This document shows positions 13,062-59,464 of a stretch of DNA of 64,000 nt, one piece after another; positions within the stretch are counted from its first letter, which is position 1, and each line of letters opens with the position of its first letter. Location: positions 23,190,001 through 23,254,000 of the forward strand of contig CM075987.1 of assembly GCA_038087875.1 (NCBI GenBank), in the 5' to 3' direction. The position numbers were made by a program, and so were the translations under genes. The stretch comes from Malacoraja senta. Its lineage: Eukaryota. The notes under the pieces were generated by a model. It was not told where the DNA came from and ran no database searches. It was given only the letters and a program-made list of their open reading frames with translations.

Positions 13062-13340
13062 TTGTGTTCAAAGAAGGAACTGCAGATGCTGGAAAATCGA
13101 AGGTAGACAAAAATGCTGGAGAAACTCAGCGGGTGCAGCAGCATCTATGGAGCGAAGGAAATAGGCAACGTTTCGGGCCGAAACCCTTGGGTTTCGGCCC
13201 GAAACGTTGCCTATTTCCTTAAGGGTTATTTTCTTAAGGGTTGCCTATTCCCTTAAGGGTTTCGGGCCGAAACGTTGCCTATTTCCTTCGCTCCATAGAT
13301 GCTGCTGCACCCGCTGAGTTTCTCCAGCATTTTTGTGTAC
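13062..13340. mobile_element. Penelope-derived hairpin element with central cassette
   Basis: Inverted arms of about 95 bp; flanking direct repeat accagccaaccaagata at 13045-13061 and 13339-13355. Confidence 0.8.
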
Positions 13341-13542
13341 CAGCCAACCAAGATACTCAAGGCCAGAGCCCTCTGGGCTAAATCTGTAAAACTCTATTTT
13401 GCTACTTTATTTCACGTATTTTATGTTCATTTAATAATTAATTATTATCGATTATTAATTTTAAATTATTATTCATCATTATTATTATATTAACATTTTA
13501 TGTAACATTTAGTTCCAGAATAAACAAGAGGTCACTCTCTTA

Positions 13543-13772
13543 AGGGCCTGTCCCACTTTCACCACCTAATTCGCGACCTTTTTTTACTCGTGGACATTTT
13601 TCATCACGCTAGAAAAAACGCCCCGACCTACTTGAATGCCACGAGTACCTACGACTAGCATCACGGCCTCCTACGACCTACCTACGACCTCGTGACGACC
13701 ATGCTGCGAGTAGGAGTCAAGGGCAAACTCGGCAGAGGTCGTGAATTAGGTCGTGAAAGTGGGACGGGCCCT
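13543..13772. mobile_element. PIF/Harbinger-type MITE
   Basis: TIR agggcctgtcccacttt...aaagtgggacgggccct; TTA TSD; internal (ctacgac) repeats. Confidence 0.85.
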
Positions 13773-15403
13773 TTAGGGATCTCTCCGTCATTTCCTCCAG
13801 CTTTATACACCTCATTAAGATCATAAGTGATAGGAGCAGAATTAGGCCATTCGGCCCACAAGTCTACTCCGCCTTTCAAACATGGCTGATCTATCTCTCC
13901 CTCCTAACCCCATTCTCCTGCCTTCCCCCATAGCTCGTGACATCCGTACTAATCAATAATCTATCTATCTCTGCTATAAAAATATCCATTCCTTCTCTCC
14001 AGAGATGCTGCCTGTCCTGCTGAGTCCCTCCAGCTTTTTGTGTCTATGTTCGGTTTAAACCAGCATCTGCAGTTCCTTCCTATATATTCCCTATCATGTA
14101 TCAATGTATACACTGTAAATGCACTGATTGTAATCATGTATTGTCTTTCCACTGACTGGTTAGCACGCAACAAAGCTTTTCACTGTACCTCGGTACACGT
14201 GACAATAAACTAACACTGAACTGAGATACGTCTTCAGCGCTGTTTGAGCCCCAGTGTCTTCAGGATGCGTCTGTTTTTCAGGATGAGCTTTTAGACTCCT
14301 GCCCTACGTTGCTCAGAGTCGAGTTTTGTTTGACACCACCTTCAGCCTCTCCTCATTTCTTCCCCAAGCACAAGGAACATCTTTAATTGCTCCTTCACTT
14401 ATCCTGTTGAAACCTTTCACAATCTTTCACATTTTTTTGAGACACGAGAGACGGCAGATGCTGGAAACTTGAGCAAACAGCAAACTGCTGAGGAAACTCA
14501 ATGGGCCAGGCAGGGTCTGAGGACGGAAATCGACAGACACCGGTTTCGGATTGAGACTGAGTGGGGTCTCGACCCAAACCTCGTCTGTCCATTTCCCTCC
14601 AAGATGCTGCCTGACCCACTGAGTTACTCCGGCACTTTAGTTTATTCTATTCCTTACCAGTTTTCCAAATTTGTGCCATCTTGATTGATTGATTAGATTT
14701 TATTGATTGATTAGATTTTATTGTCATTTGAACCTCAAAGAGGCTCAAACGAAATTCCGTTTCCACAGCCATACAAACAAAACAATTCCTACACGACACA
14801 CAAACAATTCAATTTACAGAAAAACATCCATCGCAGTGAATCTTCTCCTCACTGTGATGGAAGGCAAAGTGCACTGCATACCTAGGCCCGAGGCCTGACA
14901 CATATCGCAATTGGAGCGGTCCCAACACACTTCCATTGAGGACACCATTTTATTCCTCCTCTATGGACATTGACAATAACTCTCTTTCAATCCTGAGCCA
15001 ATTTTGTGCTGCTACTGCTTGCTTGATCCTTTGGGCTTGTTACTCTCTAATGAACCACTTCTCCATAATAAGACCATAAGACATAGGAGCATTCGGCCCA
15101 TCGAGTCAACTCCGCCATTCGATCATGGCTGATGCATTTTTGTCTCTCAACGCTATTCTCCTTCCTTCTCCCGTAACCCTGTGAGGCCCTTACTTCCCTC
15201 CACCCACACCCCCTCCTCCTTCCACCCCCCTTCTCCTTCCACCCCCATATCAATTACTTGTACATTGTCTCCTTGATTCCAGTCCACCCTCCATGGGGTT
15301 AGGTGGTCACCACTGAGTTGTGCGGCAGGTGCTTTGATCGGCGTTTACTGGTCACTGTTCGGTGAGTGTGTGGTCGGTATGTGGACTGGTGATTACTGAT
15401 AAC

Positions 15404-15560
15404 AGTTTAAGAAGGAATGCAGATGCTGGAAAATCGAAGGTAGACAAAAGTGCTGGAGAAACTCAGCGGGTGCAGCAGCGTCTATGGAGGGTTTTTTCCC
15501 TCCCCTTCTTCCATAGATGCTGCTGCACCCGCTGAGTTTCTCCAGCACTTTTGTCTACCT
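15404..15560. mobile_element. Shorter Penelope-derived hairpin element
   Basis: Same arms with a different loop; TSD tactgataac at 15394-15403 and 15566-15575. Confidence 0.7.
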
Positions 15561-15761
15561 TCTACTACTGATAACTGGTTCGTTGCGTGGTGGGTGTGTG
15601 GTAGATACGATGATCGGCGTTTACCAATCACTCTGCGGCGGTTGTGCGGTGGATAGGTTGGCCGGTGTTTACCGGTGACTGCATGGTGCGGTAGGTTTGT
15701 TCGCCGGTCGCTGCTCAGTAGTGCGGTGGGTGCCCAGGACTTGCCGTTTGCCGGGACTTAC

Positions 15762-15866
15762 CTTGGTGTCGCCTCTGGCGAGGCCGGGTCGGTCATCCAG
15801 GCTCCGAACCGCGATCCTGACGTCTTGATGGTGACCGGGTTACTGATCCCGTCAGCTTGCCGCAGG
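15762..15866 (-). CDS. Penultimate noelin coding exon ([35 protein letters not shown] after restoring two missing G)
   Basis: cag acceptor at 15869-15867 and gtaagt donor from 15761. Length is 105 nt versus about 107 expected. The noelin peptide is read only with two 1-nt insertions in G runs. Confidence 0.9.
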
Positions 15867-56784: not shown

Positions 56785-57035
56785 CTGATGTGAGACGAGA
56801 TGGCAAAGGAAAAAAGGAAAAGAAGTTAATGTGGAAACTAACAGTCCGAGGATCCACTGGCGAGCTGAAGAACGACGCAACTCGCTGGAGATGGTAATCA
56901 GTGGCCCAGTCACTGAGCCTTGATGCTACTGGTGTTTAGGGTGCGGACGTCATAGTCCTTGTCACTCTGACCCGCACTGGGGTACCGGTCCCACACACAC
57001 ACTGACCCTCGCTGGGATATGGGTCCCACACACGC

Positions 57036-57325
57036 ACGGCACGGTGGCGCAGCGGTAGAGTTGCTGCCTTACATCCCCAGAGACCCGGGTTCGATCCCGA
57101 CCACGGGTGCTTGTCTGTACGGAGTTTGTACCTTCTCCCCGTGACCTGTGTGGGTTGTCTCCGAGATCTTCGGTTTCCTGACCACCCTCCAAAGACGTAC
57201 AGGTTTGCAGGTTAATTGGCTTGGTATTATTGCAAATTGGGGTACGATAGTGTTAGTGTGGGCGGAGTGGGCTCGTTGGTCCGAAGGGGCTGTTTCTGCA
57301 CTGTTTCTCCAAACTAAACCTAAAT
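57036..57325 (+). mobile_element. V-SINE
   Basis: Head, V-domain and tail. Confidence 0.8.
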
Positions 57326-58152
57326 GAGTAAACTGGCTCCATGCAATCTCACACTCACTGAGGAACAGCCTCCAACACTCTGCCCCTCACTGGGAAGAGG
57401 CTCCTCAAGCATTCTTTCTCACTGGCCCTCTGACACTAAAGGCCCCCCCTGGGATGAAGGCACTCTCCCTGGCTTTGTTGCAGGTTTGCAGCAACTGCGG
57501 CCCTTTCAGTGACTGTCCCTGGGGTTTGAGGTCCGTGCACGGCCTCCTGCTGGAGTATCCGCAAGCTTCCTACCCGCAGGCCTCAGCCCAAGTTAGCCAG
57601 GGTGGGAGAATCACAGAGTGGTACAGCGGGGAAACAGGCCCTTCGGCCTTGAGAGTCCGCGATGACCAACTATTCCCCATTGACACTAATCCCGCTTCAT
57701 TCTCCCCACATTCTCGGCAACTCCCCACACACTATACCGCTCACTCACCCACCCACTCAGAGCAAACCACAGCAGCCAATTAATCGACCAACCCGCAGGT
57801 CTTTGGCATGTGGGAGGAAACTGGAGCACCCAGGGAGAACATGCAAACTCCAACCAGCTGGCTATCACACACCGTGGAAGGTTGGGAGATAAGCCCAGTC
57901 CCCATCTGATATCCACTGGGATGTGCAGAGAAGAACCAGGATTCCCGTTTGATGGCCCAACACTCGGTTGGTTCAGCTTAGTGGACTTAGTGGGCCGAAG
58001 GGCCTGTTTCCATGTTGTACCTCTAAAATCACATCTAAAACAAATTGACCTCAGGAAGCTGGGTGGGCTATACGGCCCAAACTTATCAATGGTGCTGAAG
58101 TCGAGATGGGCGAGAGTTTGGCCAGGGTGCTTTGCTGAGACTAATGGTGCCA

Positions 58153-58370
58153 AGGGCCTGTCCCACTTTCACCACCTAATTCACCACCTTTTTTACTCGT
58201 GGACATTTTTCATCAGGCTAGAAAAAACGCCCCGACCTACTTGATGCCACGAGTACCTACGACTAGCATCACGGCCTACCTACGACCTCCTACGACCTCG
58301 TGACGACCATGCTGCGAGTACGAGTCACGGCAGAGGTCGTGAATTAGGTCGTGAAAGTGGGACAGGCCCT
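58153..58370. mobile_element. Harbinger-type MITE (same subfamily as 13543)
   Basis: Near-identical internal sequence and TIRs. Confidence 0.85.
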
Positions 58371-59189
58371 TTACTAACCAGTCATTGTGGAGGTCTGCAT
58401 GGGGAAAGTTCCATGGCATTTATTGAATGGCTGAGGATCGATGGGATGTCTAGTCTATGATTTGTACCCTGGGGAAAAATCCTAAATTGAAGGATTTCAT
58501 TTCACAGGTTCGATTTTTAAATGGAGTGTTCAAATATAACACTTTTTTTTTATAGATTACCTGGTCATCAGGAAAGGGCCTGAAATCTGATTCCATTGAC
58601 TCGAACACAAATTAAAATTTGGGCAGTTCTGTCACTTGAGATAGCCGTGACATGCCAGGGCAACCATTCAAAATCTATGCGAGAGTCAATAGTCGTACAG
58701 CATGGAAACAGGCCCTTCGGCCCAACTTCCCCACGCCAATGTTTAAATGTTGTGGTAGTACCTGCCTCAACTACCTCCTTTGGCAGCTCATTCCATACAC
58801 CCACCACCCCCCTTTGTGTGAAACAGTTGACCCTCACCTTAAACCCACGTCCTCTGGTTTTGGATTCAACTACTCTGGGTAAAAGACTGAGCATTTACTT
58901 ATAAGTTAACTTACGAGTTTAAATAATGTGATATACAATGCTCAGTCTTTTAATAAATTCAATGAGTTAACATAATGTGATATACAGGGTAAATACCTGA
59001 AAAAGTTGCCTCTCAGGTGCCTACTCAATCTTTCCCCTCTCACCTTAAACCTCTCTCCTCTGGTTCTTGATTCCCCTACCCTGGGGTGAAAGAGTGAGCA
59101 TTTACACTGTATATCACATTGATTTAGTTCTTCTAAGGTTGCATCAATATGAATTAAAAACATTACAATCACAGTAAAGTCCTTTGTAA

Positions 59190-59464
59190 GTAGACAAAAA
59201 TGCTGGAGAAACTCAGCGGGTGAGGCAGCATCTATGGAGCGAAGGAAATAGGCAACGTTTCGGGCCGAAACCCTTGGGTTTCGGCCCAAAACGTTGCCTA
59301 TTTCCTTAAGGGTTATTTCCTTAAGGGTTGCCTATTCCCTTAAGGGTTTCGGCCCGAAACGTTGCCTATTCCCTTCGCTCCACAGATGCTGCCTCACCCG
59401 CTGAGTTTCTCCAGCATTTTTGCCTACCTTCGATTTTCCAGCATCTTGCAGTTCCTTCTTAAAC
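59190..59464. mobile_element. Penelope-derived hairpin element, cassette flipped relative to the tail
   Basis: Direct repeat aaagtcctttgtaagt at 59176-59191 and 59465-59480; inserted about 45 nt from a collagen exon donor. Confidence 0.8.

What the first reader, a model, noticed from the sequence alone, without database searches (positions are those of the whole stretch)
13062..59464. Penelope-derived hairpin elements with a shared central cassette in flip and flop orientations
Seen: three elements of about 275 bp (13062-13340, 26091-26364, 59190-59464), each with a 14-17-bp flanking direct repeat. Each has two inverted arms, an unpaired extension of about 35 nt on one arm only, and the same complex cassette (cccttgggtttcggcccgaaacgttgcctatttccttaagggttattt(t/c)cttaagggttgcctattcccttaaggg). 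The 13062 and 26091 copies are reverse complements. In 59190 the cassette points as in 13062 but the extension is on the opposite arm. The short arm always stops at the same g(g)ta(g/c)ac. The cassette has lost the CUGAAGA hammerhead core. Inference: the whole hairpin is amplified as a non-autonomous family and either strand can serve as template, or the loop flips during replication. It behaves like a retro-mobilised MITE and bears on how PLE inverted termini and tails form.
Basis: partly seen in the sequence, partly recalled or inferred. Interest (0 to 1): 0.7.

Follow-up and report, generated by a model that had tools for sequence, protein, structure and literature searches.

The report
Penelope mini-hairpins with inherited, flippable centre
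Three short hairpin-shaped insertions derive from the end of a Penelope-like jumping gene and share one inherited scrambled centre that points either way relative to the element's tail; the hairpin-plus-tail layout is already known, but the inherited centre could be used to test how these elements build their two ends.

Summary
There are three 274-277-bp insertions with separate 14-17-bp target duplications, 86-bp inverted arms, a 36-40-nt tail on one arm and a near-identical centre; in the third copy the centre is reversed relative to the tail. Much of this is ordinary Penelope-like element (PLE) behaviour. Twelve other head-to-head PLE pairs lie in the window, the tail sits on either arm in them, and both end-points are family-wide in public runs. 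An inverted copy with a tail at either end is published. What is unusual is that the junction is inherited: ordinary pairs have 12 different centres, while these three share one three-piece, hammerhead-less centre, also found in another organism's contigs. Best reading (0.5): a non-coding hairpin RNA is mobilised in trans, and both target ends are primed, one at the tail start and one at the inner start; whichever cDNA crosses the centre sets flip or flop. Main rival (0.25): a DNA template switch between the arms. The flipped form rests on one copy; no genome was held and the reads were too short to test it. New variant of a known kind; interest 0.45.

The parts
13045..13061 (+). E1 left target-site duplication (17 bp)
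13062..13101 (-). E1 tail (40 nt; outer 9 nt depart from the family end)
   Evidence: family-wide loose ends at 13071
13102..13188 (-). E1 A-side arm (PLE 3' end from hammerhead stem II to the inner end-point), carries the tail
13189..13254 (+). E1 centre: unit 1 (13189-13220), unit 2 (13221-13235), unit 3 (13236-13254), all pieces of the parent sense strand; head-to-head junction is a 32-bp palindrome with a TT loop at 13187-13188
13255..13340 (+). E1 B-side arm, short (no tail); last 2 nt shared with the duplication
13339..13355 (+). E1 right target-site duplication
26077..26090 (+). E2 left target-site duplication (14 bp)
26091..26176 (-). E2 B-side arm, short
26177..26242 (-). E2 centre (same isomer as E1, inserted the other way round)
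26243..26364 (+). E2 A-side arm plus 36-nt tail
26365..26378 (+). E2 right target-site duplication
59176..59191 (+). E3 left target-site duplication (16 bp; last 2 nt shared with the arm)
59190..59275 (-). E3 A-side arm, short
59276..59341 (+). E3 centre (flipped isomer: tail on the B side)
59342..59464 (+). E3 B-side arm plus 37-nt tail
59465..59480 (+). E3 right target-site duplication; about 25 bp from a splice donor of a fibrillar collagen exon on the - strand
53260..53593 (+). Ordinary insertion of the parent PLE family: duplication, inverted stub with tail (53276-53332), 17 last codons of an ORF (53336-53389), pyrimidine-rich UTR, intact hammerhead core (from 53487), arm ending at the inner end-point, duplication
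31231..31330 (-). Arm of the same young subfamily with the hammerhead core still intact (closest parent of the cassette pieces)
15394..15577 (.). Ordinary hairpin of the same young subfamily with a different centre and its own duplication

Best explanation
E1-E3 are copies of a small non-coding PLE derivative. Shown: they are separate insertions made only of the 3' end of a young PLE family; they share one head-to-head junction and three slippage units; the hammerhead core is gone. Inferred step 1: the centre arose once, as the scrambled junction of an ordinary head-to-head PLE insertion, by repeated re-priming at a 5-nt near-palindrome (aaggg / yccct) that brackets hammerhead stems II-III. 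Inferred step 2: a transcript of that hairpin keeps the PLE end signal (arm plus tail) and is copied in trans by an autonomous PLE RT/endonuclease. Inferred step 3: as in ordinary copies, both target ends are primed, one cDNA starting at the outer (tail) start and one at the inner start. On a hairpin template the two cDNAs join through arm homology, so the centre is kept exactly. If the tail-start cDNA crosses the centre the tail lies on one side of it; if the inner-start cDNA crosses, on the other. One template direction then gives both isomers, with no separate inversion event. Odds by step: PLE insertions 0.97; single origin of the centre 0.93; spread by retrotransposition 0.8; flip set at insertion about 0.55.
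For: 12 ordinary head-to-head pairs have 12 different centres, E1-E3 share one. Of those 12, 10 have a tail on one arm: on the arm that reaches less far 5' in 6, on the further-reaching arm in 2, undecided in 2. E1 and E2 match the first class and E3 the second. Both end-points are family-wide: loose ends at 13071 (2378 and 2919 reads) and at 13099-13102 (604-735 reads per position listed) in two RNA runs, and at 13071 and 13099-13100 in contigs. In vitro a PLE protein nicks and extends both target strands, starts reverse transcription at two internal sites that bound the tail, is predicted to be a dimer, and does not need hammerhead cleavage (PMC11167929). The tail is reported at either end of PLE insertions (PMC8557442). 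pLTR sequences alone can be mobilised in trans (PMC3846280). The arms are not inherited as one block with the centre: positions 52-53 are CT in both E3 arms and TG in both arms of E1 and E2, and both states are common in the parent family, also in a run with no depth at the centre.
Against: The flipped isomer is one copy. No strand-change joint appears among the 15 joint rows shown (297 not shown), and the raw reads were at most 130 nt. If both arms were copied from one RNA's 3' arm they should agree near the ends, yet position 83 differs between the arms in both E1 and E2, in swapped arrangement; this needs two template molecules or later exchange. The in vitro work is on a lizard Poseidon element and did not show joining of two cDNAs. 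The autonomous partner is not in the window; only 17 codons are. Three copies in 46 kb need tens of thousands of dispersed copies, or local spread (genome size assumed 2-4 Gb), while a related organism shows only about 14 times flank depth at the centre (summed depth is not a copy number).
Confidence: 0.5

Rival explanations
1. The hairpin is copied end to end as one isomer, and the centre was inverted at the DNA level, in E3 itself or in a source copy, by polymerase template switching or recombination between the 86-bp inverted arms.
For: Template switching between inverted repeats is reported to invert the spacer and homogenise the arms (PMC8604942 abstract). It would explain the concordant CT/CT arms of E3 and the swapped position-83 alleles of E1 and E2. 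Only one flipped copy is seen.
Against: It is not needed: ordinary copies, which have no shared centre to invert, already carry the tail on either arm. It does not explain how a parent-family allele entered both arms of one lineage without exchange with the parent. The paper concerns short repeats in yeast.
Confidence: 0.25
2. A source copy has tails on both arms and is transcribed in both directions; each transcript gives one isomer (the workable form of the first reader's 'either strand').
For: Bidirectional transcription and antisense templates were proposed for PLEs (PMC3846280). Arm reads lie on both strands in two RNA runs.
Against: No double-tailed copy among the 15 pairs examined. It still needs a rule that removes exactly one tail at each insertion.
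Confidence: 0.12
3. The centre spreads by ectopic gene conversion into existing ordinary hairpins of the young subfamily; the inverted arms let it land in either orientation, and each recipient keeps its own duplication, tail side and arm alleles.
For: Explains mixed arm alleles, free orientation, and three copies within 46 kb.
Against: All six arms start at the same base and are 95-97.5% identical to the reference arm, while ordinary pairs have unequal, truncated arms. In one relative a contig runs through the E1 duplication and on into unlike sequence, as expected of an empty site (record 9; inferred).
Confidence: 0.08
4. The E3 orientation is an assembly error, or the three centres arose independently at a slippage hotspot.
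For: E3 was not checked against reads of its own species. Simpler tandem joins of the same unit occur in another organism (table 5c), so the site is a hotspot.
Against: The two E3 arms differ at 3 positions, which lets reads phase them. A three-unit centre with 2 of 77 mismatches is unlikely to recur three times when 12 of 12 ordinary centres differ.
Confidence: 0.05

Closest known systems
Endonuclease-bearing PLE insertions with inverted pLTR and tail (Arkhipova et al. 2013, PMC3846280; Craig et al. 2021, PMC8557442)
   Same: Head-to-head inverted copy, palindrome at the junction, 30-40-bp tail at one end (either end), target duplication, mobilisation of pLTR-bounded DNA in trans.
   Different: Here there is no ORF and no hammerhead core, and the inverted junction itself is inherited across copies rather than unique to each insertion.
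PAc, Poseidon of Anolis carolinensis (Frangieh et al. 2024, PMC11167929)
   Same: Two reverse-transcription starts bounding the tail; both target strands extended; hammerhead cleavage dispensable.
   Different: Autonomous and tandem; its hammerhead overlaps the ORF start. No hairpin template or isomers in the parts read. Clade of the parent here is not determined (C-terminal motif resembles Neptune-type endonucleases; recalled, untested).
Non-autonomous Chlamys elements such as MRC1 (PMC8557442)
   Same: Non-coding PLE passengers that share the 3' end of an autonomous family.
   Different: Described as pLTR-forming, often head-to-tail; not as fixed hairpins with an inherited inverted centre.
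Non-LTR retrozymes (Li, Clavereau and Pollet 2026, 10.64898/2026.07.22.740005)
   Same: Small non-coding PLE derivatives related to pLTRs.
   Different: Tandem units each with a type I hammerhead; these are head-to-head and have lost the core.
L1 twin priming (PMC2837659, search listing only)
   Same: Both target ends primed, giving inverted, truncated copies between target duplications.
   Different: In L1 the two pieces come from different parts of the RNA (recalled); here both arms repeat the same 3' end.
MITEs and flip/flop terminal hairpins of parvoviruses and poxviruses (recalled)
   Same: Short non-coding hairpin; two isomers of a spacer between inverted arms.
   Different: No terminal repeats at both ends, no short fixed duplication, no replicating terminus. 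A resemblance only.

Membership tests
EN+ PLE insertion | Inverted 5'-truncated copy forming inverted repeats around the unit | tested here: met
   86-bp head-to-head arms in E1-E3; definition
EN+ PLE insertion | 30-40-bp tail at one end only | tested here: met
   40, 36 and 37 nt; family-wide end-points
EN+ PLE insertion | Target-site duplication | tested here: met
   17, 14, 16 bp; control 7 of 5000
EN+ PLE insertion | Palindrome at the inverted junction | tested here: met
   32-bp arms, TT loop, 0-1 mismatch in all three
EN+ PLE insertion | Minimal hammerhead in the pLTR of the parent family | tested here: met
   7 CTGANGA...GAAA motifs in related copies, by pattern only; Rfam gave no hammerhead match
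EN+ PLE insertion | Hammerhead core in E1-E3 themselves | tested here: not met
   0 CTGANGA on either strand
Autonomous EN+ PLE | ORF with RT and GIY-YIG endonuclease | tested here: inconclusive
   Absent from E1-E3; only 17 terminal codons of a parent at 53336-53389, too short for a protein search
Non-autonomous PLE family | Many dispersed copies of one fixed structure | tested here: inconclusive
   3 copies here; centre in 5 contigs of one other run, depth 431 against 30 in the flank; none at that position in a second organism; no genome held
Non-LTR retrozyme | Head-to-tail units each with a type I hammerhead | tested here: not met
   Head-to-head, core lost; definition
MITE (class II) | Inverted repeats at both termini and a short fixed duplication (recalled) | tested here: not met
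   One end carries an unpaired tail; duplications 14-17 bp with unrelated sequence
Described Dfam/Repbase family | Consensus entry with this centre | not testable with these tools
   Neither library is available

The most novel reading that the evidence does not exclude
A ribozyme-less hairpin retroelement whose two ends are rebuilt at every insertion by two separate reverse-transcription events, possibly from two RNA molecules held by the RT dimer. It would yield flip and flop isomers and mosaic arms from one template direction, and its asymmetric centre would be a natural reporter, countable across a genome, of which PLE cDNA makes which end.
Probability: 0.3. Interest if true: 0.7.

Novelty: new variant of a known kind. 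Interest (0 to 1): 0.45.

Why it matters
How PLEs make their inverted ends and one-sided tails is still open: the papers read offer self-priming on an antisense template (PMC3846280), endonuclease resolution (PMC8557442) and two internal start sites with unproven later steps (PMC11167929). Ordinary copies cannot separate these, because each has its own junction. A family with an inherited, asymmetric centre can: the models predict different isomer ratios, tree shapes and arm mosaics, all countable in one good assembly. It also suggests that the hammerhead core is dispensable for mobilisation in vivo. If the flip is a single DNA inversion, this is only a tidy non-autonomous PLE subfamily.

Tried and rejected
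Whole-genome copy count: no genome held. Exact search for a 33-nt centre motif in metagenome and prokaryote genome contigs: 0 hits. A 20-nt arm motif gave 15, 9 and 0 loci in three collections; all 24 matched over 37 nt or less and were judged chance. Rfam: no hammerhead or other relevant family. Read test of the flip on E1: raw RNA reads at most 130 nt and contigs broken at the arms, so no verdict; none of the runs held half of the sampled words, so the window's own species is probably not among them. Segmental duplication: rejected. A-to-I editing as the source of E3's three private T-to-C changes: rejected, since two of three have a 5' G neighbour on the antisense strand (my reading; enzyme preference recalled). 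Protein search with the 17-codon ORF end: below the minimum length; no other piece of that ORF end in the window. Pfam on 223 of 269 minus-strand frames plus one plus-strand frame found only OLF and COLFI. Small-RNA data were not examined. Paper searches listed nothing that, by title or abstract start, describes a PLE hairpin family with an inherited, invertible centre; the library lacks most subscription papers. Earlier-finding look-ups by sequence, place and isomer words were empty.
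Full report
Setting. The window is animal DNA dense in retroelement fragments, with an olfactomedin-domain exon at 7683-8408 and fibrillar collagen C-terminal exons near 59.5 and 61.6 kb, all on the - strand. 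The repeat content looks like a cartilaginous fish (recalled, not shown by a call). No whole genome was held.

Observation. E1 (13062-13338), E2 (26091-26364) and E3 (59190-59464) are as described. Duplications are 17, 14 and 16 bp; in a masked control 7 of 5000 random spans did as well, all on one other PLE insertion. The reverse complement of E1 aligns with E2 throughout; E3 aligns in arms and tail but its centre is inverted. The centres differ by 2 of 77 positions pairwise. Flanks are unrelated apart from dispersed repeats. In one relative's contigs a 677-nt record covers the left flank through the duplication and runs on unlike the element, which I read as a probable empty site (record 9).

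Parent. The arms are the 3' end of an abundant family: one arm-plus-tail query gave dozens of hits in the window. The copy at 53260-53593 shows the layout: an inverted stub with the tail, 17 last codons of an ORF, a pyrimidine-rich stretch, a CTGAAGA...GAAA hammerhead motif, then the arm. Seven such motifs remain in the window, none in E1-E3. Minimal hammerheads are reported in fish Xena, Poseidon and Neptune PLEs (PMC4209133, passages). The ORF remnant was too short to search, so the PLE call rests on architecture and motif, and the clade is open.

What is ordinary. I picked 12 other head-to-head pairs by hand from the blast table. Ten carry a tail on one arm: on the arm reaching less far 5' in 6, on the further-reaching arm in 2, undecided in 2; two have no clear tail. 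In 7 of these 10 the short arm ends within 4 nt of the same point. In public runs of other organisms, loose ends pile up at the tail end (13071) and at the short end (13099-13102), and reads continue into the hammerhead core at 13188, where the cassette family departs. An inverted truncated copy with a 30-40-bp tail at either end is the published norm (PMC8557442 passages; PMC3846280 passages; PMC8969392 passages). The tail lies between two reverse-transcription starts, and both target strands are extended (PMC11167929, parts 1-2 of 4).

What is not ordinary. All 12 ordinary pairs have different centres; E1-E3 share one. It consists of a 32-bp palindrome with a TT loop at the inversion point, then three units tiled entirely from the parent's sense strand, each starting at the aaggg that opens hammerhead stem II and ending at a near-complement 30 nt downstream. 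Such a scar is unlikely to recur three times, so the junction was inherited. It also exists outside this assembly: in run X1 a contig spans 13207-13282 with 3 differences, and position 13232 has depth 431 in 5 contigs against 30 in the flank; run X11 has no depth at that position, and RNA depth over the centre is near zero. Summed depth is not a copy number. Simpler tandem joins of the same unit have higher depth in X1, so the site is a slippage hotspot.

Arms are mosaics. Positions 52-53 read CT in both E3 arms and TG in both arms of E1 and E2. Position 83 is G in the short arm of E1 but in the tail arm of E2. Both sites vary in the parent family: roughly 30-50% CT-type and 6-26% G across the four runs laid on the E1 tail arm. 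The arms therefore do not travel as one block with the centre. Three copies cannot say whether the exchange happens at insertion or afterwards.

Mechanism. Seen from the junction, E1 and E2 have the tail on the stub side and E3 on the body side, the same two classes as ordinary copies. The simplest account is that the parent machinery primes both target ends, at the tail start and at the inner start, and that on a hairpin template either cDNA can cross the centre before the two join through arm homology. This gives both isomers from one transcript direction (0.5). DNA template switching between arms, which inverts spacers and homogenises arms (PMC8604942, abstract), is the main rival (0.25). 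Conversion of ordinary hairpins (0.08) and artefact or recurrence (0.05) trail.

Against and unexplained. The flip is one copy and was not tested on reads. Position 83 does not fit copying of both arms from one RNA. Three copies in 46 kb imply either tens of thousands of copies in this species or local spread (assumed genome sizes), which the low depth in a relative does not settle.

Comparison and verdict. It works like a PLE head-to-head insertion and meets four of its structural tests; it fails the tests for retrozymes (10.64898/2026.07.22.740005, part 1 of 5) and MITEs. Searches listed no description of an inherited, invertible centre; Dfam and Repbase were out of reach. Earlier AI notes on other shark-like genomes describe palindromic PLE stubs with centres built anew; that matches the ordinary copies here but not E1-E3. 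New variant of a known kind, interest 0.45.

Noticed in passing
window:49749-49826 (+): Rfam match to the CPEB3 ribozyme (38.5 bits, cut-off 35, E 9.4e-07); the core matches well but the outer stems poorly, and the locus is collagen/olfactomedin, not CPEB3.
   Followed up: no
window:59465-59510: E3 sits in a fibrillar collagen intron, its duplication about 25 bp from a splice donor, placing a very stable RNA hairpin beside the exon.
   Followed up: partly
window:13099 in runs X22 and X23: Loose ends before this position (608 and 735 reads, agreement 0.49 and 0.42) have a consensus that looks like a library template-switch adapter (recalled). It may mark RNA 5' ends at the short-arm boundary, antisense to the PLE; the tool's table of start sites listed none.
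   Followed up: no
window:59176-59197 and 59465-59486: The target beyond E3's duplication resembles the element's short end (21 of 22 matches across the junction); E1, E2 and the 53.3-kb copy share 1-5 nt there too, hinting at microhomology at the inner start.
   Followed up: partly
window:13536-13779 and 58152-58371: Two copies (91% alike) of a true MITE-like element with 38-44-bp terminal inverted repeats, unrelated to the PLE hairpins.
   Followed up: partly
window:31231-32330: A young PLE arm with intact hammerhead core runs directly into a 35-39-bp CA-rich minisatellite array; a related array lies near 55.6 kb.
   Followed up: no
window:13189-13289 in run X1: Contigs with other tandem joins of the hammerhead stem II-III unit (one joint at depth 2291) suggest further core-less PLE derivatives in relatives.
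   Followed up: no
window:19073-19272 and 54435-54634: Two assembly gaps of exactly 200 N, neither near E1-E3.
   Followed up: yes
window:62287-63024 and 63340-63906: Open frames that read like CR1/L2-type LINE 3' ends (recalled), members of large repeat families in the window.
   Followed up: no
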